Origin: a virus | Direction: 5' to 3' (one strand) | DNA: 64,000 nt | IMG/VR virus record: IMGVR_UViG_3300031950_000001 | Location: 32,001 to 96,000 of that record | Shown: one piece after another, positions 7,001 to 56,372 of the stretch | Numbering within the stretch: position 1 is the stretch's first letter | How the letters are laid out: the number at the start of each line of letters is the position of its first letter | The notes under the pieces: model-generated | What the model saw: only the letters and a program-made list of their open reading frames with translations | Database searches by the model: none | What the model was told of the DNA's origin: nothing | Position numbers and translations under genes: made by a program

Positions 7001-7285
7001 ATGCGAATTGTACTCGACAATAAAGAATTTGAATGTAAGAAGTTCGTCGTATTCGACAAGTTTGGCAACGCGGTCGCTGCCGGATATGATCATGCTGATG
7101 TCCTCGTGTTTGATACATGTGCCGGCCCCGATTTTCCGAAAATTCTCTCCATTGTTGGCTATCCAGATCGTCTTCCAACACAGATCATTGATACAAAACC
7201 ATTAATACCGGAGCTTTCTCCTATCAAGCCTGACACAGGTGCCGACCATGCAGGAAACGACCATTGGACAACTCTTAATTTCTAG
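7001..7285 (+). CDS. Hypothetical protein
   Basis: 94-aa ATG ORF filling the gap before the RNAP gene and overlapping its start. Confidence 0.55.
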   Translation: MRIVLDNKEFECKKFVVFDKFGNAVAAGYDHADVLVFDTCAGPDFPKILSIVGYPDRLPTQIIDTKPLIPELSPIKPDTGADHAGNDHWTTLNF

Positions 7286-9089
7286 TACCCTGCCGTCGGA
7301 TATTAAGCTTCCTGACGAAATCACAAAGAAGACGATCAATAGTTTCTATGGGGAGCTTGCTCGCAAATACCCCGATCGCTACGGCGAAATTACGAAAAAG
7401 TTAAATCAAATTGCCGTTCAGGCCCTTTATTCCAATGACGGCGCCTCGTTTAGCCTAGATGATCTTCGACCTCTTCCTTCTTCTTACTCTTATAGACCGG
7501 TTATTCTAAAAGAGATCGAGCAGATCGCGTCCAGCAAATTGCCGGATCGCGAAAAGCGCAAAAAAATCGCCGACGCCATTCTTCGTCATTCGCAAAATCT
7601 CCTTCAACTCACGCAAGACGAGGCCAAAGCCGCGAATAATCGATTCTACGAATATGTCTATTCCGGCGCTCGCGGTAATCCCGCCCAGCTTAAGCGGCTT
7701 ATTACGGGGGATACGGCCTACTTTGACCCCTCTGGAGAGGTAGTACCCTTCCCCGTTTTATCTGCGTATTCGGCAGGAGTACCTCCCGCAGAGTTTTGGG
7801 CTGCCTGCTATGGCGCCAGGAAGGGGCTAGCGGATACAAAGCTGGATGTAGCCAGAAGCGGTTATCTTGCCAAGCTTCTCAACCGTGCTACCCATCGGCT
7901 TGTTGTTATCGGCCACGACGCCAAAACAAAAACTCCTTATCCCATTGGTCTTCCTGTAGAGACTCAAGACCCTGATAATATCGGCGCATTTCTCGCACTT
8001 CCGGCAGGAAGATGGCCTGCCGGTACGGAGATAACACCGGCCGTTTATGAAGATCTAAAACGAGACGGTATCAAAAAGATCGTCGTTCGGAGTCCCATTG
8101 CCAGCCCTGCTGTTGATGGAATCTATGCCGTCGATGCCGGAATCCGCGAACATGGTCGTCTCCCCGAAATCGGTAGCATTCCTGGCATGGCGGCGGCCCA
8201 AGCAATCGGCGAACGACTAGCACAGACGTCCTTGAGCTCGAAGCATCTGGGAGGCGTTGTGAAGTTTAGCGGCTTTAGAGTGCTAGAACAGATGCTTAAT
8301 GTTCCGAAATTCTACGTTGGCGGCGCCATTCATAGCCAGGTCGACGGAAAAGTTCGATCTATAGACAAAAATGAAATTGGTCAATGGCGAATTGTAATCG
8401 GAGAACAAGAACATCTAGCACCTCCGTCCCATAAACCCATCGTCAAAGAGGGCGACGTTGTCGAAGCCGGAGACATACTAACGGAGGGTTTGCCCAACCC
8501 GGCAGAGGTAGTAAAGCACAAAGGGGTTGGCGAAGGACGTAGGGCATTTGTTAAAATGTTTTATGAGGCGATGCGTGACGCTGGTCAGCCGGTCCATCGT
8601 CGTAATGTCGAGCTTTTAGCCCGAGGTCTTATCGATCACGTTATTATAACCCAGCCGTTTGGGGGGTTCTATCTCGATGAAATCGTACCCTATGGCGAGG
8701 TTGCTAAGCGATGGACCCCCCGAAAGGGTAGTGTTCGAGTTCCTGTCGACAGCGCGTTAGGCTACTATCTTGAAGTACCCGTTCTTCACTACACGATAGG
8801 GACAAAGATAAAGCCTTCGGTTATCAAAGAGCTTAAAGAGGCGGGAATCAAAGATATTATCGTTCATAGCGATCCGCCTCCGTTTGAGTCATATATGGTT
8901 CGTGCAGCATCTTCGCTTGAGTTTGATCCCAACTGGATGACACGGTTGTTCGGCTCGAACCAAATTCGGGCCTTATTAAGCGCCGTCCGTCAAGGCGCTA
9001 CAGGTGAAATCTACGGTACTAGCTTTGTTCCTGCAAAAGCAATCGGGATTCCGTTGGGGCAGTGGATACGTGGAGTTGTAAATCGCTAA
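7239..9089 (+). CDS. Phage multisubunit RNA polymerase, beta'-like C-terminal half (split rpoC homolog)
   Basis: Has SGARGN, a bridge-helix-like GARKGLADT..SGYL, a trigger-loop-like AAQAIGERLAQ..SKH, sandwich-barrel VKEGDVVEAGDILTEG, and HRRNVELLAR. No NADFDGD catalytic motif. Confidence 0.9.
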   Translation: MPTMQETTIGQLLISSTLPSDIKLPDEITKKTINSFYGELARKYPDRYGEITKKLNQIAVQALYSNDGASFSLDDLRPLPSSYSYRPVILKEIEQIASSKLPDREKRKKIADAILRHSQNLLQLTQDEAKAANNRFYEYVYSGARGNPAQLKRLITGDTAYFDPSGEVVPFPVLSAYSAGVPPAEFWAACYGARKGLADTKLDVARSGYLAKLLNRATHRLVVIGHDAKTKTPYPIGLPVETQDPDNIGAFLALPAGRWPAGTEITPAVYEDLKRDGIKKIVVRSPIASPAVDGIYAVDAGIREHGRLPEIGSIPGMAAAQAIGERLAQTSLSSKHLGGVVKFSGFRVLEQMLNVPKFYVGGAIHSQVDGKVRSIDKNEIGQWRIVIGEQEHLAPPSHKPIVKEGDVVEAGDILTEGLPNPAEVVKHKGVGEGRRAFVKMFYEAMRDAGQPVHRRNVELLARGLIDHVIITQPFGGFYLDEIVPYGEVAKRWTPRKGSVRVPVDSALGYYLEVPVLHYTIGTKIKPSVIKELKEAGIKDIIVHSDPPPFESYMVRAASSLEFDPNWMTRLFGSNQIRALLSAVRQGATGEIYGTSFVPAKAIGIPLGQWIRGVVNR

Positions 9090-11087: not shown

Positions 11088-13376
11088 ATGAACGTCAGAA
11101 ACCTCTATTTCGATCGATTAAATCGTAAATTAAACGCAATCGAGGACAGTATTCGTCTTGTAAAGAGGGCGCAAGGAGCTGACCAGAAGGACCCATGGAA
11201 AATTTTGGATAGCTATCTAAAGGCGCATGAGATGAAGGTAAGGGACCTGCTCGATAAGGTCCAGCAGAAATACGGGCAAACCGGCGCGACAATGCTTCAG
11301 CGATTTCTTGAAAATAACGGGATCAAGCCCGACACTTCCTTATCTTCGGATCTTACGCAGAAAATTCTTAACCTTATACGATCGAAACAAGAGTACAAAT
11401 TCGCTCTTGACGCCGTGCCTGCTATAGTGGATGCGTTGTTGAAGGACATGCCGAAAAATGAACGAAAGATCGTGACAAATGCGGTTAAAGCGCATATATC
11501 CGCTCCGCAGACCAGACAGCCAGCTCAACAGCCAGCTCAACAGAACGCCGCACAGCCAAGTCCGCAGGCTCAACAAACGCAAAAGGCTAGGGAGCGCCTT
11601 GTTCCAGTTCAGCTTTCGCCGGACGGAAAGGGCGGCGTCTATCACGACCCAGAAACGGGCTATTATTGGGCACTTTTTCCAGATGAAAGAAAGGTCTGGG
11701 TCTCCCCAGACGAAATGGCGAAGACGATAAACGCTAGGGAAATGAGCAAAAATCGACCTTGGTTCCAGCAGATTATGTCAAATCCGCACTATACGGATAG
11801 GAGCAAAGTCCTCGAAGATCAAGGAATGACAGAGGACGCAGAGCGAATGTTCAAGTTTCATCTCCAACAATTTGCGCCCAGGAGCTTTGATCCGAATCGG
11901 ACGGCGCTACTACGCGCCCGAGCGGCGGAGTTTGCAGAGGTTCGCGACGGTAAAAAGGTTATAACAGGCAATAGCGTAAAAGCCGCAATAGTGGCAGATT
12001 ACCTAATACAGCGTGGTAGGGGTTTGGCACATGAAGACGAGGTGTTTAGAAATCCTGCTACAGCGGGCTGGCCGACCAATATGCCGCCGCGTACGAAAGA
12101 ACAACAGGCGAAGCGCATAGCCGAATCGGTTACGAGCTCGGTAGAGCGCTTTGAAGATATTCGAAATACGCTTCTTGGTCTGTCACCTGAACTTCGCCTA
12201 CGGGTTTGGAGTTCGCTTCCGAAGGAGACTCGACAGCAACTGCTAAAAGCGTATAGAGACTTGGATTATAAAACATTTGGCCGCGGTTACATCGAGGAAA
12301 GATGGAAGAGAATAAAATCGGATATAGTGAAATGGGGGATTATACCAGTCCCGCCCGAGCAGAAACCGCCAGAAGGGCCCCCGCCCGAGCAGAAGCAGCC
12401 TCCAGCGCCCCCGCCGAATCCGTTCGACGAGCCCCAGCCAGAGCAGAAGCAGCCTCCAGTACCTCCGCCAGAGCAGAAGCAGCCTCCAGTGCCTCCGCCG
12501 ACGCCCGAGCAGAAACCGCCAGAAGGGCCCCCGCCCGAGCGGAAGCAGCCTCCAGCGCCTCCGCCACCTGCTGACCAATCGTATGCCCTAACGTATCCCT
12601 TTGCGCCTCGCGAGCCAGGCACAATTGGATCAGTTGGTGAACAGATTACTGTACCGCCGTCGCTCTTATCGGGGTGGCCAGAGTCGAACAAGCCTGCCTT
12701 TCCGAATTATCCGTATAGAGTAGTAGAATCGAATCCCACTGAAGGGCTTGGTCTGCCTAACGCCTTAACGCAGCCGCAAAAACCCTTATCACAGATATTT
12801 GAGTCTACACTCGGTCCTTTGCCGCCCCCGTCGAACAAGCCTACCGTTCCGAATTACCCGTATCGAGTCGTAGAATCGAATCCCACTGAAGGGCTTGGTC
12901 TGCCTAACGCCTTAACGCAGCCGCAAAAACCCTTATCACAGATATTTGAGTCTACACTCGGTCCTTTGCCGTCTGAGTCGAAGAAGACGCCTGCACCAAC
13001 GTATCCCTTTGCATCTCAAACACCGGGCACAATTGGATCAGTTGGGGAACAGATTACTGTGCCGCCGTCGCTCTTATCGGGGCGGCCTGCGTCGAATGCC
13101 AGCCTATCTGGTCTGCCTGCTGCTGGGCAATCGTCCGCACCAACGTATCCCTTTGCATCTCAAACACCGGGCACAATTGGATCAGTTGGGGAACAGATTA
13201 CTGTGCCGCCGTCGCTCGTATCGGGGTGGCCAGAGTCGAATGCCAGCCCGTTTGGTTCGCCTGCTGCTGGTCGGCCATCCATACCGACGTATCCATATTC
13301 GCCTCTAGAATCGAGTCCACCAGGAACGATTGGTCGACCGAGCGTTATACCACCTGCGCTACCGCTAATTTATTGA
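11088..13376 (+). CDS. Leader-family B protein with long Pro-rich repeat tail
   Basis: Starts MNVRNLYFDRLNRKLNAIEDSIRLVKRAQ. Has PEQKQPP repeats and approximately 47-49-aa tandem repeats. Confidence 0.85.
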   Translation: MNVRNLYFDRLNRKLNAIEDSIRLVKRAQGADQKDPWKILDSYLKAHEMKVRDLLDKVQQKYGQTGATMLQRFLENNGIKPDTSLSSDLTQKILNLIRSKQEYKFALDAVPAIVDALLKDMPKNERKIVTNAVKAHISAPQTRQPAQQPAQQNAAQPSPQAQQTQKARERLVPVQLSPDGKGGVYHDPETGYYWALFPDERKVWVSPDEMAKTINAREMSKNRPWFQQIMSNPHYTDRSKVLEDQGMTEDAERMFKFHLQQFAPRSFDPNRTALLRARAAEFAEVRDGKKVITGNSVKAAIVADYLIQRGRGLAHEDEVFRNPATAGWPTNMPPRTKEQQAKRIAESVTSSVERFEDIRNTLLGLSPELRLRVWSSLPKETRQQLLKAYRDLDYKTFGRGYIEERWKRIKSDIVKWGIIPVPPEQKPPEGPPPEQKQPPAPPPNPFDEPQPEQKQPPVPPPEQKQPPVPPPTPEQKPPEGPPPERKQPPAPPPPADQSYALTYPFAPREPGTIGSVGEQITVPPSLLSGWPESNKPAFPNYPYRVVESNPTEGLGLPNALTQPQKPLSQIFESTLGPLPPPSNKPTVPNYPYRVVESNPTEGLGLPNALTQPQKPLSQIFESTLGPLPSESKKTPAPTYPFASQTPGTIGSVGEQITVPPSLLSGRPASNASLSGLPAAGQSSAPTYPFASQTPGTIGSVGEQITVPPSLVSGWPESNASPFGSPAAGRPSIPTYPYSPLESSPPGTIGRPSVIPPALPLIY
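12349..13250 (+). repeat. Intragenic tandem repeats
   Basis: CCCGAGCAGAAGCAGCC units, a 147-bp duplication near 12683/12830, a 141-bp duplication near 12995/13136, and three copies of PGTIGSVGEQITVPPSL. Confidence 0.85.
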
Positions 13377-13416: not shown

Positions 13417-13746
13417 TTGGCTTTTCTAACTTTTTCTTCGGCAAATGACGAATATTTGATTGTTTTCTGGAAAGATGAGTCGACACCTCTATTGGTGTTT
13501 GAAATCGCCTCCGGCAGCGGGATGGTGGCCAAATGCGTTCCCAATTCGGAACCAAACTCATTTGTGATGGATATTATCGGAGGAATAAAGCGAAATAGTC
13601 CGAAATCGATACGCGTAGATATCGATAATGACAACATGAAGTATTATGGTCCTTTGCTGGACGAGTTCATAGAGGAACTGACTGGCGGTGAAATCAAGGC
13701 CGATTCGACAAGCAAAGGTACCAATACTCAGTCCTCTGCTAGTTAA
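13417..13746 (+). CDS. Hypothetical protein (paralog of 13783)
   Basis: GAGGAGG RBS. Shares KD..TPL..FE, GGIK.NS...IRV.ID and GP..DE.IE.LTG with the next gene. Confidence 0.75.
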   Translation: MAFLTFSSANDEYLIVFWKDESTPLLVFEIASGSGMVAKCVPNSEPNSFVMDIIGGIKRNSPKSIRVDIDNDNMKYYGPLLDEFIEELTGGEIKADSTSKGTNTQSSAS

Positions 13747-13782: not shown

Positions 13783-14139
13783 TTGGTCGTGCTCTTTATC
13801 GACATTTATTCGGAAAAAGACGGGTTTGTCGTTATTATTCGGAAAGATAAGTTGACCCCTCTAGTGGCGTTTGAAACTGACGGCACTAGCTTTGTTGTGC
13901 ACAAGTACGTTTGGGGTCCCGGAAGAAAAAAGATTGAGTTTACGCCGAACGCTTTAGGCGGAATCAAGCTAAATAGCTCACAGGCCATACGAGTCGAGAT
14001 CGATGACGCGAACGTGGTATATATTGGCCCTACTATGGACGAACTCATTGAGGCCCTAACCGGTGTCAAAATTCGACCGAAAGAATCCCAAAATGGAGCT
14101 GATTCTGAAACTTGCAAAGATCGGCGAGCAGATTCATAA
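13783..14139 (+). CDS. Hypothetical protein (paralog of 13417)
   Basis: AAGGAG RBS and clear paralogy to 13417. Confidence 0.75.
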   Translation: MVVLFIDIYSEKDGFVVIIRKDKLTPLVAFETDGTSFVVHKYVWGPGRKKIEFTPNALGGIKLNSSQAIRVEIDDANVVYIGPTMDELIEALTGVKIRPKESQNGADSETCKDRRADS

Positions 14140-14323
14140 CGGCAATTCGACGCCGGAAGGTATCGAAGAGTTTTTGGCGCTTTCGGAGGAACGTCTTAAA
14201 GAGCTCCACAAGCAAGTTGCCGAGTTCTATCAGTCTGGAAATCTTGAAGACTGGAAAACCTATTATTTTGCGCGACTTTGTCTTCAATCGATCTTCCGGC
14301 GTCGTTCAGGCCGTCATCCTTAA
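14093..14323 (+). CDS. Small hypothetical helical protein
   Basis: Protein-like ORF overlapping the end of the upstream gene. Start uncertain. Confidence 0.45.
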   Translation: MELILKLAKIGEQIHNGNSTPEGIEEFLALSEERLKELHKQVAEFYQSGNLEDWKTYYFARLCLQSIFRRRSGRHP

Positions 14324-14340
14324 CGCGCCGTTCCACCGTC

Positions 14341-14428
14341 AAAATTTTTGATTCCGGAATCAAAAATTTTTGGTTTATCCCCCTATATAGGGGGTTATCG
14401 CTAAAAATTTGATTCCGGAATCAAATTT
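14341..14428. repeat. Two dispersed palindromes (cores 14347-14364 and 14408-14425) flanking CCCCCTATATAGGGGG (14379-14394)
   Basis: Three palindromes within 90 bp. The first extends to 30 bp perfect. Confidence 0.92.
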
Positions 14429-39044: not shown

Positions 39045-39117
39045 AATTTGTGGCTTCTGCGGCGTCGAAAGTCGGGTTCGACAGGCCAGTTGTCGTTTTT
39101 TGAGGCATTTAATATTG

Positions 39118-39147
39118 GGGTGGCGTTTGCCACCCTTTTTGTTTTTA
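39118..39147 (+). terminator. Intrinsic terminator
   Basis: GGGTGGC-GTTT-GCCACCC followed by TTTTTGTTTTT. Confidence 0.7.
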
Positions 39148-44412: not shown

Positions 44413-45492
44413 ATGCTAGCGTTGGCCTCCGCAGACTGGCATATCGGAGACACGATAAAAGGCTTTATGCCATACGAACTCAAAGAGGATATTGATACCA
44501 TTCTCGACCTTATTCTAAAAGAAGTTGAACGGCTATCCCCTAAATGCTTTATTCTGGCTGGCGATATTTTCGACACCAAAACCGTCGGGGGCGAATCCTT
44601 AGCAAAATGCTCCCGGTTCATTAAACGCTGCCGGGACGTCGGCTGTACTGTGCTTTTTGTCCAAGGCCAGCATGATCTTAATACGGTTCCCATTCTGTCT
44701 ACATACGGCTACGACAACGTCGTTTATCTCAACGGAAAACTGCAGTGGTTTTCGCCTGACGGTAATCTACGGATTGCAGGTATGGATTTTGCCTACAAGC
44801 CTTTACGGGCTATCTCCTGTGATCTCTTAGTGACGCATCAAAACTGGAAACGGCCAGGATGGCCTTTCGGTATCCAAGAGCCTATTCCAGCCCTTTTAAA
44901 GAAGAAGCTGGTTGTTTCCGGTGATTGGCACGAGCATACGGTATTTCATTTGGGTTCCGATCTGCCTGCTGTCCTTTCTCCAGGACCGCTTCTGCCACAA
45001 CGACTAACGGAACCAAAAACATGCGCCATCTGGGCTATCGAGGATGATCTTTCCTATCGAAGCATTATCATCCCTACCAGGAAGTGGTTTGAATACACCA
45101 TAATGGGTGACGACGAATTAGACAAAGCGGTATCCGAAGTCAATGGTTTTCGGTGCGATCCTACCATTCCAGAAAGATTCGTAAAACCAGTATGCGTCTT
45201 GCGTTATCCTGCCGATTTCCATAATCAGGTGCTAAAAGCCGAAGAAAGCATGAACGCCATTTGTATTCATGTTTTGCTGACTAGCCCTAAAGAAAGGGGA
45301 CCTGTGGAAAAACTCACGTCCAGCCAGTTCGATATTCGACAGATTTTACGGCGTCTCTACGCAGACGATCCGAAACTAGCGGATATCGAACGTATTCTTA
45401 TGGCTTCAAGTCCATCGGCAGTAAAAGAGATTATTCGGGACATTCTGGGAGAACCAAAGAACCACGTCAACGGAGGGAAGGTTGAGTCATGA
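44413..45492 (+). CDS. SbcD/Mre11-like metallophosphoesterase nuclease
   Basis: ADWH, GDIFD, GQHD, THQ and GDWH motifs. Coupled to an SMC-type ATPase. Confidence 0.85.
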   Translation: MLALASADWHIGDTIKGFMPYELKEDIDTILDLILKEVERLSPKCFILAGDIFDTKTVGGESLAKCSRFIKRCRDVGCTVLFVQGQHDLNTVPILSTYGYDNVVYLNGKLQWFSPDGNLRIAGMDFAYKPLRAISCDLLVTHQNWKRPGWPFGIQEPIPALLKKKLVVSGDWHEHTVFHLGSDLPAVLSPGPLLPQRLTEPKTCAIWAIEDDLSYRSIIIPTRKWFEYTIMGDDELDKAVSEVNGFRCDPTIPERFVKPVCVLRYPADFHNQVLKAEESMNAICIHVLLTSPKERGPVEKLTSSQFDIRQILRRLYADDPKLADIERILMASSPSAVKEIIRDILGEPKNHVNGGKVES

Positions 45493-47207
45493 GTATTTCT
45501 CGTCTTTCGTTACGTCACTTCCGAAAGCATCGAAATCTCGACATTTCCTTTGGCCCAACGACATTGATCATAGGCCCAAACGGTTCAGGCAAAAGCACGA
45601 TTATCGAAGCCATACGTTTCGCGCTCGTAGGTGCGCTTAATAGCGACCTTAAGGACGCGATTACCGTCGGATCAAGCGAAGCCTTTGTCGATCTTCATTT
45701 CGACGACGGACTCATTGTTCGACGAAGGATTGACAAGCGCGGTAGTTACGCCGGACTTGAGCACGACGGCAACGCCGTCAATGGGGTTTCGGCCGTAACG
45801 AAATACATCTTGGACCATTTCGATATCTCCGAAGAAGCCGTTCATGTACTGCTGTCTCGGCAGGAAGCACTGTATGAATTCTTTATGGAAGCTGAAGCCA
45901 AACGAGTAGGGATGGTCTCTTCGCTCATTCCTGGCGTAGGCGTCATCAAGTCCCGATATGACTGGCTGACAGACGCGTTATCATCCTATCCGGACTATGG
46001 CACGCTCGAACCGACCAGCGAGGAAAAAGTCCGCCAATTAAAAAATAAGCTGAATGAGGTCGAAGCCAAACTAAATGAGCTCAAAAAGCGAAGGAATGAT
46101 GCTCTAGCCCGACAAAATGCCGATCGTGAAAAGGCCAGAATAAAGGAATTGGCACACCTCATAGCGCTGAAGCAGTACGAGATTGAAGAAATTAATCGAA
46201 GGGTCGCTCAGATGGAGGCGATGCTAGCCGAACTGCAGCCGAAACTTGAAACTCTGACTTCCCAAATCCAGAAAATCGAGACGCCGGCGGCCGATCTTGC
46301 GCGTCAGAACGAGCTACGGAAAGCCTATCAGACGGTCATGGAAGATATGACCCACAAGATTGCAACCGAGCCTCGATTTGAGGATATGAAAGAAGTCCTT
46401 GCTCCGATTGTTTCGGAGCTACTGAGCTGGTTCATCCCTCCGCCCGTTGATACGACCATTTTCGACAAGCTTGCCGAGCTTCGACAGGAAGAACAGGTCT
46501 TAAGCCATAACAAGCAAGTGCTTCAGACCGAAATCGCCACTCTCAGAAACCGAAAGTCTCTTATGGCGTCTGAAAAAAGCTTTCTACAGAGCAGGAGAAA
46601 CGCCATCATGATTCCGCAAGAAGAGCTGTCTTCAGAGGAGAATGTGGAAGAGCTTGTTGCGAAGACGGACAGTATGATGAGTGAAATGGCCAAGATATGC
46701 GAGGAACTCAGCAAAGAGAAGCGGCTATTACAAATGGGCCAATATCAACAGAAAAGAGACTATGTCAATCAGCTTCGGAATGTATTTCACTGGCGAAACA
46801 TCTCGATGCAGGCTTCAACATTCATCCTTGATAACCTTGTCGACGATATCAATGACTATCTCGCCCTATTAGATGTTCCATTTAGGGTCAAAACGAAGGA
46901 AGGCTCTATGACGCTGACAGCCGTATTTGGAGACACCGAGCTTCCGGATCAATTACTCTCAGGAGGCCAACGGGTGGCTGTTTCAATCGCTATGAAGTTG
47001 GCAATTTTACGCCTTTTGGGGGGTAAGTTCCGGTTTATCGCCCTAGATGAGCCGACGGCTTTTCTAGACAACGCCAGAATAGCCGGGCTAAGGGAGCTTA
47101 TGAGACGGACAAACGAAGTATGCCGTAATGAAGGGACGAAACTGATCGTAATCAGCCATTGTCCCGAAATTCAATCGGCATTTGATAATGTGGTCCAACT
47201 GGGCTAA
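45489..47207 (+). CDS. SbcC/Rad50-like ATPase
   Basis: Walker A GPNGSGKST, coiled coil, signature LSGGQ, Walker B LDEPT and H-loop ISH. Confidence 0.9.
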   Translation: MSISRLSLRHFRKHRNLDISFGPTTLIIGPNGSGKSTIIEAIRFALVGALNSDLKDAITVGSSEAFVDLHFDDGLIVRRRIDKRGSYAGLEHDGNAVNGVSAVTKYILDHFDISEEAVHVLLSRQEALYEFFMEAEAKRVGMVSSLIPGVGVIKSRYDWLTDALSSYPDYGTLEPTSEEKVRQLKNKLNEVEAKLNELKKRRNDALARQNADREKARIKELAHLIALKQYEIEEINRRVAQMEAMLAELQPKLETLTSQIQKIETPAADLARQNELRKAYQTVMEDMTHKIATEPRFEDMKEVLAPIVSELLSWFIPPPVDTTIFDKLAELRQEEQVLSHNKQVLQTEIATLRNRKSLMASEKSFLQSRRNAIMIPQEELSSEENVEELVAKTDSMMSEMAKICEELSKEKRLLQMGQYQQKRDYVNQLRNVFHWRNISMQASTFILDNLVDDINDYLALLDVPFRVKTKEGSMTLTAVFGDTELPDQLLSGGQRVAVSIAMKLAILRLLGGKFRFIALDEPTAFLDNARIAGLRELMRRTNEVCRNEGTKLIVISHCPEIQSAFDNVVQLG

Positions 47208-47222
47208 AGATTTGCTGAAATT

Positions 47223-47465
47223 AAGGGCATTTACAAACGGCCCGGGGCGTCCACATTTTGCTCCTTGTGGCGTCCCGGGCCATTTCTGAAGAGAATTTTT
47301 TGTCCCCTAAACTGGCCGCGACCCCGGCGGCCTAAAATAATCGGAGGGGCGCCCCCCAGCGTTTGTGCGGGTGAGGCTGATTCTGCCAGGTGGCTGCCGG
47401 CCTGGCGATTCCATAGTCGGGACACTGGCTTTTGGGGACAGCCGGTGCGACTATGAAGTGCCTTT
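47223..47465 (+). ncRNA. Candidate structured ncRNA (multibranch with pseudoknot), family not recognised
   Basis: A closing stem, five internal stems, a loop-to-strand pairing and G.U pairs that favour the + strand. Confidence 0.6.
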
Positions 47466-47497
47466 TCCGGCGGCGTTTTTTTAGCTATTAGGCAATT

Positions 47498-47515
47498 TTT
47501 GATTCCGGAATCAAA
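47498..47515. repeat. Dispersed palindrome TTTGATTCCGGAATCAAA
   Basis: Exact copy. Confidence 0.95.
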
Positions 47516-47621
47516 TTTTTTTAATCATATCGCCAAAAGTGCGGCATTTAATAATGGGAATGGCCATCGTGCGGTGCGATGGCTAATTTTTTTTACTTTT
47601 TTTACAATTGGAGGTTTTTTT

Positions 47622-48101
47622 ATGAACCAAGTGTCAACCGGTTTTCAAAATGTTCTAAGTCAAGAAATTTCAAAAGAGCAGTTTGTCGAACTGCTCAACC
47701 AGGCCCGAGAGAGGGCCAAGCGGCTAGGAAGGCCGCTAACCGGGCTAATTTGGCTGCCCAAGGGGCTTTCCGAGCCCCTCAGGGCAGCCGCCGTTACCGT
47801 CTACCCAGACGGTAACGGAATTGCCGGAATGGGGATTTTCAATCCCCACCCGGCCACGACGGGCAGGTATGAGGGCCGGTGGTATCGGTGGTCGGTCGAC
47901 GAGACCGACGTAACCAAGCCAACCGGCCAATGGGCCGGGCGAGCCCTGGCTTTAATTGCTCATGGCCTCGCCACCGGGCGAGCCTACCCGTTCCCAAACG
48001 GGCAGGCCGCGCCGGAGGGGGACTATGAAGCCCCACCCCGCTACGCCGTAGCGGCCGGTGGGCTGCATTCAGTAATCCCCCAGGCCTTCCTGGCCCGATA
48101 A
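47622..48101 (+). CDS. Hypothetical protein with atypical composition
   Basis: GGAGG RBS in a T-rich leader. 159 aa. Confidence 0.75.
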   Translation: MNQVSTGFQNVLSQEISKEQFVELLNQARERAKRLGRPLTGLIWLPKGLSEPLRAAAVTVYPDGNGIAGMGIFNPHPATTGRYEGRWYRWSVDETDVTKPTGQWAGRALALIAHGLATGRAYPFPNGQAAPEGDYEAPPRYAVAAGGLHSVIPQAFLAR

Positions 48102-48138
48102 AGAATTTCAATTAAAGTGAATTAATTCATGGAACGTT

Positions 48139-48205
48139 GCGGGTAGCCCGGCGTCGGTTCAAACAGCTTTTTTTGAAACGCCGGGCTACCCGCTTGAATT
48201 TTTTT
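48139..48205 (+). terminator. Long GC hairpin, probable terminator
   Basis: 16-bp perfect stem GCGGGTAGCCCGGCGT/ACGCCGGGCTACCCGC followed by a T-rich tract. Confidence 0.7.
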
Positions 48206-48273
48206 AGTGATCAGACAAGAATCGACAGTAGAATTTGCCTCGTTCTTCTATTTTTTCACTTGGAGTAAGGCCT

Positions 48274-52777: not shown

Positions 52778-54043
52778 CTAAACCACGGCAGGTTTGGTAG
52801 GCTGCCTTTCTTCAGCCAATTTTGACGCTTCATCCAGAACTGCCCCGAAGGGTCTTACGTCCTGTCCACGTCCGTTTAGAGAGTCCGTGAACCCACTCCG
52901 GCCTCTGTTGATCAAACGTAACGCTTCCCGCTCAATGTTCCGAGCGGCGTTCAAATCCCTATCAGCGGTATACCCGCACTCACAAACAAACGTTCGGTCA
53001 CTCAGTGCCAAGTCTGATTTGACTACACCACACATTGGGCATAGCCGACTAGAGGGGAAGAAGCGGTCAACTTTTACCAATACGCCGCCGTACCACTCGG
53101 ATTTGTATCGTAACTGTCGTACAATCTCGCCAAGCCCAGCATCGGAGATTAGCAGGGCCATGCGGTGGTTACGCAGCATTCCGGCGACATTCAAATCTTC
53201 CACGCCGATAATCCGATAGGTGCGGGCGATCTCGGTCGTCATCTTGTGCAGATAATCCAACCGCTTGTTGGCTATCCGACGATGTAGCGTCGCCAACTTC
53301 TTCTTGGTGCGGTTCCAGCGACCGCTTCCCTCTTGTCGGCGGGATAGTTCGCGGCTCAGACGCTTTAACTTTCTCAGTCTTGAGCGTAGCAGCACTTGGT
53401 TCTCGTACCGCTTGCCATCTGAGAGAACAGCCAAAGTCCTGACGCCCACGTCTATCCCGACTGCCCCTTGTGGGTGCTTGTGTTCTGGTGGTTCGATTTC
53501 TACATTGACAGCAGCATACCAATGCCCTGCGTTCTCCGAAATAGTAACTGACTTGATTTCACCGTTAAACCTCAACACCTCGGCCATATTGATTGGTTTA
53601 TCTAACTTTTCCAACTTGAGCCAATGGCCGTCAATACGAACCCGTGTCCCGTCCATTCTGAAGGATAATTTGGATCGTTTCTTGGACTTGAACCTGGGAT
53701 AGCCCTTCTTAGTATCGCCATTCTTGCACCGGCGAAAGAACCTCGTGAATGCGTCATCAAGATTCCGAAAGCCAGTTTCTACAGCGCATTTAGAAACGTC
53801 CAGGGCCCAGGGGAACTGCTTGCGCTTGATGGCGTTGAATTGCCTTTTCAAGGTATAAGCTGATGGTTTCCTGCCAGCGGCATATTCTTTCTGCCACTCG
53901 GCCAAACCCCAATTGAAGGCAAATCTTGCCGTTCCGCAAGCCTTGCGCAGGTACTCGGTCTGTTGAGGCGTGGGATTAAGTCTGATTTTATGTGCTCGCT
54001 GCATCGGAGCTTTCCTTCTGCCTGCGCCCGCCTCGTGCTCCAT
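52778..54043 (-). CDS. tnpB: TnpB RNA-guided nuclease
   Basis: N-terminal HTH_OrfB-like region, RuvC D (GIDVG), E (VEDL) and D (DRDLNAA), and Zn finger CPMC...CECG. True start probably MQRAHK. Confidence 0.95.
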   Translation of the reverse strand: MEHEAGAGRRKAPMQRAHKIRLNPTPQQTEYLRKACGTARFAFNWGLAEWQKEYAAGRKPSAYTLKRQFNAIKRKQFPWALDVSKCAVETGFRNLDDAFTRFFRRCKNGDTKKGYPRFKSKKRSKLSFRMDGTRVRIDGHWLKLEKLDKPINMAEVLRFNGEIKSVTISENAGHWYAAVNVEIEPPEHKHPQGAVGIDVGVRTLAVLSDGKRYENQVLLRSRLRKLKRLSRELSRRQEGSGRWNRTKKKLATLHRRIANKRLDYLHKMTTEIARTYRIIGVEDLNVAGMLRNHRMALLISDAGLGEIVRQLRYKSEWYGGVLVKVDRFFPSSRLCPMCGVVKSDLALSDRTFVCECGYTADRDLNAARNIEREALRLINRGRSGFTDSLNGRGQDVRPFGAVLDEASKLAEERQPTKPAVV

Positions 54044-56337: not shown

Positions 56338-56355
56338 TTTGATTCCGGAATCAAA
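56338..56355. repeat. Dispersed palindrome TTTGATTCCGGAATCAAA
   Basis: Exact copy. Left flank ACCGCCTAAAA is shared with the 39009 copy. Confidence 0.95.
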
Positions 56356-56372
56356 TTTTTTAGCTAGTCGCA

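What the first reader, a model, noticed from the sequence alone, without database searches (positions are those of the whole stretch)
47223..47465. Unrecognised ~245-nt structured RNA with a closing stem, five arms and a pseudoknot
Seen pairings: 47223-32 with 47456-65 (closing); 47239-55 with 47266-81; 47314-19 with 47327-32; 47339-44 with 47377-82, with inner 47350-54/47369-73; 47385-90 with 47401-06; and 47412-19 with 47448-55, continuing as 47423-30/47440-47. The loop of the last arm (GGGGAC, 47434-39) complements single-stranded GTCCCC (47302-07). Non-Watson-Crick positions are G.U on the + strand and would be A.C on the minus strand, which argues for a + strand RNA. A T tract and a palindrome follow. 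I cannot match it to tRNA, tmRNA, RNase P, SRP, group I intron or common riboswitch signatures. Inference: a novel phage ncRNA (ribozyme, decoy, packaging RNA or guide scaffold), possibly partnered with ORF 47622.
Basis: partly seen in the sequence, partly recalled or inferred. Interest (0 to 1): 0.75.

Follow-up and report, generated by a model that had tools for sequence, protein, structure and literature searches.

The report
Novel structured small RNA gene, phage
This is a real, strongly folded non-coding RNA gene of about 240 nt, with its own promoter and terminator, in a 144-kb hot-spring (probably Chloroflexus) phage; it matches no catalogued RNA family, was found only as two diverged copies in this one phage lineage, and its job is still unknown.

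Summary
Window 47239-47482 (+) lies between a phage-specific promoter box and a T-run terminator motif. It folds into six helices: P1, P2 enclosing P3, P4, P5 and P6.

A paralogue at genome 13.17 kb, and three variants of it in metagenome contigs, each fold on their own into the same architecture. There are about 8 compensatory pair changes and many G.U-only changes, which point to a + strand RNA. Indels of 2, 5, 11 and 16 nt rule out coding.

No Rfam family matches. No homologue was found in other viral contigs, in a 135-kb relative phage, or in 152 Chloroflexia-class genomes including the Chloroflexus genome that shares the phage's IS.

- **Closing stem:** its 5' arm is the promoter box, and its 3' arm lies in a target-only insertion.
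- **Pseudoknot:** it is no better than chance (137/1000 shuffles), it is absent in the paralogues, and its 5' partner is the P2 strand.
- **ORF 47622 partnership:** the ORF has its own promoter, it is a separately recombining cassette, and it occurs without the RNA in the relative phage.

The function is inferred only: a stable, probably early, trans-acting RNA that acts through invariant C-rich loops or as a protein decoy. Expression could not be tested.

The parts
47203..47212 (+). Upstream promoter element GCTAAAGATT; overlaps the TAA stop (47205-07) of the SbcC/Rad50-like gene
   Evidence: Exact motif CTAAAGATT occurs 7 times in the genome, all on the + strand. Six of the seven lie about 22 nt upstream of a GGCATTTA box; five of those are in the early ncRNA/small-ORF cluster and the sixth is here. 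Its role as a promoter element is inferred.
47226..47240 (+). Promoter core box GGCATTTA-C-AAAC-GG; inferred transcription start at about G47239
   Evidence: GCATTTA[A/C]N3-5GG occurs 17 times on + and 0 times on - in the 144-kb genome, each copy followed at once by a GC-rich hairpin. The same box is kept in a relative phage with only 52% SbcC identity. The start site is inferred, not measured.
47239..47281 (+). P1: 5'-terminal hairpin of 16 bp with one bulge. Loop 47256-65 carries the invariant UGCUCCU (anti-Shine-Dalgarno-like CUCCU).
   Evidence: Folds in every version taken alone. Between target and paralogues there is a paired deletion of one bp and C-G/U.G/A-U exchanges. The loop motif is identical in all 5 versions.
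47282..47301 (+). J1/2 linker: purine tract GAAGAGAA plus U6. The paralogues have a perfect orphan SD, AAGGAGG, plus a U run here.
   Evidence: No start codon or reading frame is conserved downstream: the UUG-initiated mini-ORFs fall in different frames in G000 and L024, and L022 has none (my reading of the sequences).
47302..47350 (+). P2 (47302-08 with 47343-50, A47345 bulged), enclosing P3 and the asymmetric internal loop.
   Evidence: Predicted independently in all versions. The 3' strand GGAGGGGC is invariant apart from one A->U in L024 at the site of A47345. The 5' strand varies (GUCCCCU, CUCUUUGA, GCUACCGA, CUAUUGG) yet keeps pairing through C/U opposite G. The A->U on the 3' strand in L024 is matched by U->A on the 5' strand.
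47314..47332 (+). P3 hairpin, 6-8 bp, with invariant 7-nt loop GACCCCG
   Evidence: C-G <-> U-A double change at 47316/47330, and G.U <-> G-C at the base.
47333..47342 (+). J3/2: nearly invariant A-rich single strand (C)UAAAAUAAUC
   Evidence: Identical in the target and in the G000, L019 and L022 paralogues; one shift in L024. It is part of a 38-nt block that is identical, bar one base, between the two loci.
47351..47377 (+). P4 hairpin, abutting P2 with no linker. Extended and bulged in the target; 7 bp plus a UGCG tetraloop in the paralogues.
   Evidence: The 5' strand is GCCCC(C/U)C. Support is weaker than for the other helices because only target versus paralogue differ.
47385..47406 (+). 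P5 hairpin: 6 bp in the target, 11 bp in the paralogues
   Evidence: C-G <-> U-A double change at 47386/47405. CU/UC exchanges opposite an invariant GG in the paralogues.
47412..47455 (+). P6 two-part hairpin (8 bp, internal loop, 8 bp). In the paralogues it is directly followed by AAGU plus a U run, so it is their terminator hairpin.
   Evidence: Pair 47416/47451 is G-C in the target, G.U in G000 and L022, and A-U in L024. The inner helix has three double changes between target and paralogues.
47456..47475 (+). 3' extension that contains the target-only 16-nt insertion. 47467-74 can pair with the P5 loop 47393-400 (8 bp), giving the stem that precedes the T run.
   Evidence: Absent from all paralogue versions. 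The stem appears in the MFE fold of 47237-47484. It occurs in a single sequence only, so covariation cannot test it.
47476..47487 (+). T7 run plus AGCTA: terminator-associated motif and inferred 3' end
   Evidence: T5+AGC[TC]A occurs 13 times, only on the + strand and always after a hairpin, including after the phage's tRNA-Met.
47499..47514 (.). 16-bp palindrome TTGATTCCGGAATCAA. Not part of the RNA: a genome-wide operator-like site upstream of the next promoter.
   Evidence: 16 copies in the window against 0 expected.
47543..48101 (+). Separate transcription unit: promoter box (47543-57), leader hairpin plus U8 (47561-93), RBS, and ORF 47622-48101
   Evidence: The divergent cassette 47491-48234 is protein-coding: 34 of 51 changes fall at codon position 3.

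Best explanation
The region is an independent gene for a stable, highly structured non-coding RNA of about 240 nt (about 47239 to 47482, + strand). It belongs to a phage-specific family with two loci in this genome.

Shown:
- A six-helix fold (P1; P2 enclosing P3; P4; P5; P6) kept by compensatory change.
- No conserved reading frame.
- Promoter-type and terminator-type motifs shared with the phage's other transcription units.
- No linkage to ORF 47622.

Inferred:
- Transcription starts at the GG after the GGCATTTA box. That box belongs to the promoter subclass (with GCTAAAGATT) otherwise confined to the left-end cluster of small ORFs and ncRNAs, so the RNA is probably made early.
- P1 at the very 5' end, plus the purine/SD-like tract, acts as a 5' stabiliser, and P6 or the 3' stem acts as terminator and 3' protector, making the RNA long-lived.
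- The conserved core (P2-P5) displays invariant single strands: L1 CUCCU, L3 GACCCCG and J3/2 UAAAAUAAUC.

My preferred mechanism, at about 0.3, is that it acts in trans by pairing its C-rich loops with G-rich Shine-Dalgarno-type sequences of host or phage mRNAs, and so controls translation. Binding or titrating a protein through the same invariant elements is almost as likely.
For: - **Structure:** every version folds alone into the same architecture. 97.7% of cells are paired, against 30-47% for slid controls. RNAalifold on a plain MAFFT alignment recovers P1, P3, P4, P5 and P6.
- **Genuine double changes:** these occur in P1, P2, P3, P5, P6a and P6b (three).
- **G.U pairs:** 4 to 10 per version, which would be A.C on the other strand.
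- **Non-coding:** indels of 5, 5, 11, 2-3 and 16 nt separate the loci.
- **Own expression signals:**
- **Invariant loops beside varying stems:**
- **Independence from ORF 47622:**
- **5'-stabiliser precedent:** SD-like or polypurine sequences and 5' structures protect RNAs from 5'-exonucleolytic decay (Agaisse & Lereclus 1996; Hue et al. 1995, both as listed in PMC3997798).
Against:
- Only four distinct sequences from two lineages exist, so covariation statistics are thin.
- In one search, the six 'double changes' in helix 1 are an alignment artefact: the L022 row is shifted by one base.
- The target copy is identical in all 9 contigs, but so is the adjacent end of the SbcC gene. That invariance therefore does not show selection.
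- No specific mRNA target was found in the phage genome, and only chance-level matches were found in the likely host genus.
- The target has a degenerate SD-like tract, so that element is not essential to the family.
- A multi-helix body is more than a simple antisense regulator needs.
Confidence: 0.6

Rival explanations
1. Protein-binding scaffold or decoy. The conserved core (the internal loop J3/2, the L3 loop, and coaxial P2/P4) binds and titrates a host or phage protein, such as a nuclease, an RNA-binding regulator or a defence sensor. The two paralogues offer different peripheral loops.
For: - Multi-helix architecture with an invariant A-rich asymmetric internal loop and invariant loops, while L4, L5 and L6 differ between the loci.
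- Early-type promoter, and the paralogue lies within a cluster of other structured RNAs.
- No base-pairing target was found.
Against: - No candidate partner gene is linked to either locus.
- No similarity to host RNAs that a mimic would copy: R1/R2 found nothing convincing in Chloroflexus sp. MS-G or in 151 genomes of its class.
- No CRISPR-repeat-like match.
Confidence: 0.25
2. Cis-acting leader. The RNA would be an attenuator, riboswitch or processive-antitermination (put-like) element that controls read-through from its promoter into ORF 47622 and the RuvC-like gene.
For: - It sits between a promoter and a terminator, upstream of genes on the same strand.
- In the target, the P5 loop can pair with the 3' extension to build the stem before the T run, an alternative-pairing arrangement.
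- L5 complementarity to other parts of the RNA is unusually strong: 17 of 1000 shuffles do as well.
Against: - ORF 47622 has its own promoter box and leader.
- The cassette boundary falls between the RNA and the ORF.
- The paralogue is followed by another promoter-bearing RNA gene, not by an ORF.
- The relative phage expresses the ORF homologue without this element.
- The L5/3'-tail pairing does not exist in the paralogues.
- No riboswitch family matches.
Confidence: 0.08
3. DNA-level or replication element. The region would be an R-loop or primer-RNA origin, or a recombination site, placed inside the SbcCD-RuvC recombination module.
For: It lies between recombination genes. A promoter is followed by a GC-rich structured transcript and then an AT-rich stretch (35% GC at 47500-47699).
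Against: - Cumulative GC skew shows no inflection near genome 79 kb.
- Compensatory changes pass through G.U intermediates, which indicates selection on an RNA rather than on DNA hairpins.
- The second copy lies among ncRNA genes.
- The relative phage lacks the element at the syntenic site.
Confidence: 0.03
4. No present function: a duplicated, decaying promoter-hairpin-terminator cassette, or a chance set of GC-rich hairpins.
For: - Distribution is very narrow: one phage lineage, absent from the 135-kb relative.
- The target copy shows no variation that could demonstrate selection.
Against: The two loci are only about 76% identical over the alignable 5' 154 nt, and the 3' half is too diverged to align by BLAST, yet all six helices are kept with compensatory changes and paired indels. 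The loops and J3/2 stay invariant while the stems vary. This pattern is not expected from neutral decay.
Confidence: 0.04

Closest known systems
C-rich-loop riboregulators of Firmicutes (RsaE/RoxS, hairpins of S. aureus RNAIII) and the cyanobacterial Yfr1 type
   Same: A stable multi-hairpin RNA with its own promoter and terminator. Invariant C-rich apical loops (CUCCU, CCCC) are complementary to Shine-Dalgarno-type G-rich sequences. This comparison rests on my own knowledge of those RNAs; no tool tested it.
   Different: There is no sequence or Rfam relationship. This RNA is about twice as long, has a P2/P3 internal-loop domain, is phage-encoded, and has no identified target.
phi29-family packaging RNA (pRNA)
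   Same: A phage-encoded, promoter-proximal, structured RNA of 120-170+ nt whose fold is conserved more than its sequence.
   Different: No Rfam pRNA match. No pair of loops is complementary in all versions: L6 is UUUGGGGAC in the target and CUGGCAA in the paralogues. The phage is a 144-kb genome with direct terminal repeats, not a phi29-like one. There are two diverged copies per genome.
Stable small RNAs of unknown function in large lytic phages (e.g. T4 species 1 and 2 RNAs in the tRNA cluster)
   Same: Small, stable-looking RNAs encoded beside other RNA genes in an early or RNA-gene cluster, with no known function. This comparison rests on my own knowledge.
   Different: The T4 RNAs are processed from a tRNA precursor transcript. 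Here each RNA has its own promoter box and terminator motif, and there is no sequence relationship.
5' stabiliser modules (STAB-SD of cryIIIA; polypurine stabiliser of phage SP82 early RNA)
   Same: A 5'-terminal structure, plus an SD-like polypurine tract that initiates no conserved ORF. It is a perfect AAGGAGG in the paralogues (references listed in PMC3997798).
   Different: This is only a sub-module of the RNA. The tract is degenerate in the target copy (GAAGAGAA). A stabilising function was not tested, and whether the host has an RNase J was not checked.
HK022 put RNA and other cis-acting antiterminator or attenuator leaders
   Same: A structured RNA immediately downstream of a phage promoter and upstream of terminators.
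   Different: It is much larger and ends at its own terminator. The downstream gene has a separate promoter, and the paralogue is not followed by an ORF.

Membership tests
Any Rfam 15 family (4227 models) | Score at or above the family's gathering threshold | tested here: not met
   No match in the window or in genome 1-20 kb and 125-144 kb other than the tRNA. In E-value mode, the only hits that overlap the RNA are sub-threshold noise (snoR80, MIR814, IRES_mnt, E 0.6-5.6). No family recurs on the paralogue versions.
phi29-type pRNA | Two loops complementary to each other (intermolecular ring formation) and covarying among relatives | tested here: not met
   Loops of the target and paralogues were compared. 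The target's L6 complementarity is no better than shuffles (137/1000) and is absent in the paralogues.
Riboswitch or transcription attenuator | Lies in the 5' leader of the regulated gene, with no promoter in between | tested here: not met
   A second promoter box at 47543-57 and a recombination-cassette boundary at 47491 separate it from ORF 47622. The paralogue is followed by another RNA gene.
Riboswitch or transcription attenuator | Mutually exclusive terminator and antiterminator pairings, conserved among homologues | tested here: inconclusive
   The target has a P5-loop/3'-tail pairing. It is absent from the paralogues, where P6 plus a U run is a plain terminator.
Type III toxin-antitoxin antitoxin RNA (ToxI-like) | Tandem direct repeats of a short unit, followed by a terminator and a toxin gene | tested here: not met
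   There is no tandem repeat in 47100-47700 except a TTTTTTTAC doublet in the ORF leader. ORF 47622 has no Pfam or PHROG match.
Retron msr-msd ncRNA | Adjacent reverse transcriptase gene, and conserved terminal inverted repeats closing the RNA | tested here: not met
   The neighbours are SbcD-like, SbcC-like, ORF 47622 and a RuvC-like resolvase. The only terminal inverted repeat (47223-32/47456-65) is missing in the paralogues.
TnpB/IscB omega-RNA | Overlaps the 3' end of the nuclease gene or the transposon end | tested here: not met
   The IS607-type tnpB lies about 5 kb away on the other strand (window 52778-54043). Models R1 and R2 find no other copy in the genome.
tRNA / tmRNA | Cloverleaf or tRNA-like domain detectable by ARAGORN | tested here: not met
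   No gene found in the window or in genome 1-20 kb.
Trans-acting anti-SD (C-rich loop) riboregulator; functional class, not a homology family | Conserved, unpaired C-rich loop complementary to ribosome-binding sites | tested here: met
   L1 UGCUCCU and L3 GACCCCG are unpaired in every independent fold and invariant in all versions.
Trans-acting anti-SD (C-rich loop) riboregulator; functional class, not a homology family | An identified mRNA target whose translation it represses | tested here: inconclusive
   A genome scan for sites complementary to L1, L3 and J3/2 gave only generic RBS-like matches. Against the likely host genus there were only chance-level hits. An experiment is needed.

The most novel reading that the evidence does not exclude
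The RNA is one component of an RNA-based early takeover or anti-defence arsenal. This Chloroflexus-type phage appears to encode its own RNA-polymerase-like subunit. It dedicates a class of its own promoters to a battery of unrelated, highly structured ncRNAs: this family, a second family at 12.3-14.4 kb, and further arrays noted by other readers. On this reading, the family defines a new functional RNA class, such as a protein-sequestering or ribosome-directed RNA with a novel fold.
Probability: 0.2. Interest if true: 0.8.

Novelty: new variant of a known kind. Interest (0 to 1): 0.5.

Why it matters
Phage-encoded structured RNAs with known roles are few: pRNA, RNA anti-CRISPRs, antisense immunity RNAs and sRNA sponges. 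Each of those revealed a new way for a virus to control its host.

This is a well-delimited RNA gene with comparative support for a six-helix fold. It comes from a thermophilic phage lineage almost devoid of annotated genes, and it sits among several other unclassified RNA genes.

Three things would make it a new RNA class, and a handle on how such phages use RNA rather than protein for early functions:
- transcription is confirmed;
- a partner (mRNA or protein) is found;
- the family is seen in more phages.

As it stands, it is a solid but narrow-range candidate of unknown function. The corrected anatomy and the defined promoter and terminator motifs make it directly testable.

Tried and rejected
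- **Rfam:** gathering and E-value modes on the window, both genome ends and the paralogue contigs gave nothing. ARAGORN gave nothing.
- **Phage GenBank records:** blastn found no match.
- **Core-motif scans:** the 21-mer in viral contigs found none. The 19-mer in metagenome contigs found only one contig of the same phage plus two chance hits in a coding region.
- **Other pattern scans:** the gapped P6 pattern in viral contigs found none. The P3-loop 16-mer gave 120 chance hits; model R2 rejected all 80 listed loci that were searched.
- **SbcC-based search for related viral contigs:** none at first. A later search by protein found a 135.5-kb relative, which lacks the RNA by R2 and by a 31-mer with 3 mismatches.
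- **Host-mimic idea:** R1 on Chloroflexus sp. MS-G and R2 on 151 genomes of its class gave no convincing match. The only hit was a 30-nt piece at E 0.009 in genome G101, which is flagged unpublished. I treat that hit as noise and rest no claim on it. blastn of the RNA against MS-G gave chance-level hits only.
- **R2 hit at genome 7075-7260 (- strand, 33 bits):** rejected. It is hairpin-only similarity inside a GC-rich stretch that I read as a small ORF on the + strand.
- **Small-peptide reading:** rejected, because frames differ between versions and the P3 compensatory changes are non-synonymous.
- **Whole-record search through locus L161:** It succeeded through L165/G152 instead.
- **Origin idea:** no GC-skew inflection.
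- **Conserved tertiary pairings:** I compared the loops of all versions by eye and ran a loop-shuffle test on the target. None is shared by all versions.

Full report
**Setting.** The window is bases 32001-96000 of a 144,055-bp virus record with direct terminal repeats and 49% GC. The finding lies in the 414-nt gap between an SbcC/Rad50-like ATPase gene (45489-47207) and ORF 47622-48101. An SbcD-like phosphoesterase lies upstream and a RuvC-like resolvase downstream. The RNA region has 58-59% GC against about 47% around it.

The phage's IS607-type TnpB is 85% identical in protein to one in Chloroflexus sp. MS-G. All related contigs come from metagenomes. I take the host to be a thermophilic Chloroflexus-like bacterium; this is an inference.

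**Transcription signals.** The genome holds a second, diverged copy at 13145-13297 and beyond, 76% identical over the first 154 nt. It lies in a left-end cluster of GC-rich, ORF-poor units.

Comparing the units revealed a shared box, GGCATTTA[A/C]N3-5GG. It has 17 copies on the + strand and none on the - strand, and each is followed immediately by a GC-rich hairpin. Six of the boxes, including those of the target and its paralogue, also have GCTAAAGATT about 22 nt upstream; the motif's seventh copy (genome 128954) has no box. Units end with a hairpin and T5+AGC[TC]A. That motif has 13 copies, on the + strand only, and one follows the phage's single tRNA.

The same box is kept in a relative phage whose SbcC is only 52% identical. 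I therefore read 47203-47240 as a promoter with a start at about G47239, and 47476-87 as the terminator. These are inferences from motif recurrence, not measured ends. The generic sigma-70 scan finds no promoter here, which fits a phage-specific promoter. A protein in the window weakly matches an RNA-polymerase beta-subunit PHROG.

**Homologues.** The target copy is identical in nine metagenome contigs. This is not evidence of selection, because the neighbouring end of the SbcC gene is equally invariant. The divergent blocks start at 47491 on one side, and in contig L164 stop at about 46850 on the other.

The paralogue offers variation. Contigs found through a neighbouring early protein gave three further versions: L019, L022 and L024 (=L025), the last from a lineage about 12% diverged. 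Covariance models R1 and R2 find no third locus in the genome.

**The fold.** Each version folds on its own into the same architecture:
- P1 at the very 5' end.
- P2 enclosing P3 through an asymmetric internal loop.
- P4 abutting P2.
- P5.
- A two-part P6.

Genuine compensatory changes, read:

| Helix | Change |
|---|---|
| P3 | C-G <-> U-A (47316/47330) |
| P5 | C-G <-> U-A (47386/47405) |
| P6a | G-C (target) <-> G.U <-> A-U (47416/47451) |
| P6b | three double changes between target and paralogues |
| P1 | a paired one-bp deletion and A-U <-> C-G |
| P2 | U-A <-> A-U in L024 |

P2's four different 5' strands all pair with an almost invariant GGAGGGGC through C/U-opposite-G exchanges.

On the model-fitted alignment, 97.7% of cells are paired against 30-47% when partners are slid. 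That table's six 'double changes' in helix 1 are an artefact of the L022 row being shifted by one base in a palindromic stem, so I do not count them.

RNAalifold on an unfitted MAFFT alignment recovers P1, P3, P4, P5 and P6. Every version has 4-10 G.U pairs, which would be A.C on the other strand. Together with the strand-specific signals, this fixes the + strand. Indels of 5, 5, 11, 2-3 and 16 nt between the loci, and mini-ORFs that fall in different frames, exclude a conserved peptide.

1. The closing stem's 5' arm (47223-32) overlaps the promoter box, and its 3' arm lies in an insertion unique to the target. It is not part of the family fold.
2. The GTCCCC partner of the proposed pseudoknot is the 5' strand of the conserved P2. 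The loop GGGGAC is replaced by CUGGCAA or CCGGCAA in the paralogues. 137 of 1000 shuffled loops pair as well elsewhere in the RNA.
3. The stem 47339-44/47377-82 uses an 11-nt stretch absent in the paralogues and competes with P2.
4. The palindrome that 'follows' is one of 16 copies of TTGATTCCGGAATCAA in the window. It is a genome-wide operator-like site in front of the next promoter.

**Relation to ORF 47622.**
- The ORF has its own GGCATTTA box (47543-57), a leader hairpin with a U run (47561-93) and an RBS.
- The block 47491-48234 differs by 11-14% between phages whose flanks differ by 0-1.5%. It is truly coding: 34 of 51 substitutions fall at codon position 3.
- No copy of the ORF lies near the paralogous RNA.
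- In the 135.5-kb relative, an ORF homologue (27% identity, E 2e-9) follows SbcC directly behind the same promoter box, and neither R2 nor a relaxed core-motif search finds the RNA anywhere in that record.

The RNA gene is therefore a lineage-specific insertion, or a duplication of the early-cluster copy, next to the ORF. It is not the ORF's partner.

**What it may do.** The invariant elements are the L1 loop UGCUCCU, the L3 loop GACCCCG and the A-rich strand J3/2. The last two lie inside a block of 38 nt that is identical in both loci apart from the one covarying P3 base. In contrast, L4, L5, L6 and the 3' tail differ between the loci.

The paralogues also keep a perfect orphan SD (AAGGAGG plus a U run) between P1 and P2, while the sequence around it drifts. 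The target has only GAAGAGAA.

A 5'-terminal hairpin plus an SD-like polypurine tract is the classical design of 5' stabilisers (references in PMC3997798). I infer that this module, together with the 3' hairpin, makes the RNA long-lived.

For the core I see two comparably likely mechanisms:
- Pairing of the C-rich loops with G-rich ribosome-binding sequences, giving translation control. The phage's own genes use GGAGG sites.
- Sequestration of a protein.

No specific target emerged from the complementarity scans. No host RNA resembles it (the single 30-nt sub-threshold hit in the unpublished genome G101 is disregarded). Cis-regulatory, origin and no-function readings are less likely, for the reasons given under the rivals.

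**Limits.** Only four distinct sequences from two lineages exist. The searches of public collections needed exact words and could miss distant relatives. The start site, the 3' end, the temporal class and the function are all inferences.

**Verdict.** This is a genuine, previously uncatalogued, phage-specific structured RNA gene with a corrected six-helix model. It has a narrow distribution and unknown function, and it is not partnered with ORF 47622. The scan has not noted this sequence elsewhere.

Noticed in passing
whole genome; in the window e.g. 47226-47240, 47543-47557, 39102-39120 (genome 71105): Promoter-like box GGCATTTA[A/C]N3-5GG: 17 copies on the + strand, none on the - strand, each followed at once by a GC-rich hairpin and often a U run. 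The same box occurs 4 times on one strand of a relative phage with 52% SbcC identity. It is probably the promoter of a phage-directed RNA polymerase.
   Followed up: partly
genome 5679-134369; in the window 47476-47487 and 56350-56366 (genome 88356): Terminator-associated motif T5+AGC[TC]A after hairpins: 13 copies, + strand only. The conserved AGCTA beyond the U run is unusual for a plain intrinsic terminator.
   Followed up: partly
window 47499-47514 and 15 other sites: The 16-bp perfect palindrome TTGATTCCGGAATCAA occurs 16 times in the window (0 expected), mostly at gene boundaries and upstream of promoter boxes. It looks like an operator for a phage regulator.
   Followed up: partly
window 47491-48234: The ORF 47622 cassette is a recombination hot spot. 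It differs by 11-14% in nucleotides between otherwise near-identical phages, and is under purifying selection (34/51 changes at codon position 3). It has no Pfam or PHROG match, 65% GC, and a 27%-identical homologue at the syntenic site of the 135-kb relative.
   Followed up: partly
genome 12336-14372 (L003/L002): A second, unrelated family of promoter-to-terminator structured RNA units flanks the paralogue: copies at about 12869-13094, 13438-13728 and 14086-14372, plus a divergent one at about 12336. There is no Rfam match. The cluster is mosaic among related contigs, with whole cassettes present or absent.
   Followed up: partly
genome 14811-17300 (L003): Three copies of a conserved 5' leader (promoter box plus GGACGGGACCGCCAGG... 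hairpins) lie in front of small ORFs in the early region.
   Followed up: no
window 52778-54043 (- strand): An IS607-type TnpB is 85% identical in protein to one in Chloroflexus sp. MS-G, which points to Chloroflexus as the host genus.
   Followed up: partly
window 7239-9089: A 616-aa protein weakly matches PHROG families that include 'RNA polymerase beta subunit' (E 6e-27 to an unknown-function family, 3e-6 to the RNAP family). This suggests a phage-encoded multisubunit RNAP.
   Followed up: no
L164 349-2067 versus window 45489-47207: The SbcC-like gene is mosaic between strains: up to 22% divergence per 100 nt until about 46850, then identical through the RNA gene.
   Followed up: yes
window 47522-47594: A sub-threshold Rfam hit to enterobacterial STnc240 (28.5 bits against gathering 55, E 0.04). 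It is only the hairpin plus U run of the ORF 47622 leader, not a family member.
   Followed up: yes
L003 13217-13232; L022, L024 equivalents: The paralogue versions keep a perfect orphan Shine-Dalgarno sequence (AAGGAGG plus a U run) with no conserved start codon or frame behind it. It may be a 5' stabiliser or a cis partner of the CUCCU loop.
   Followed up: partly
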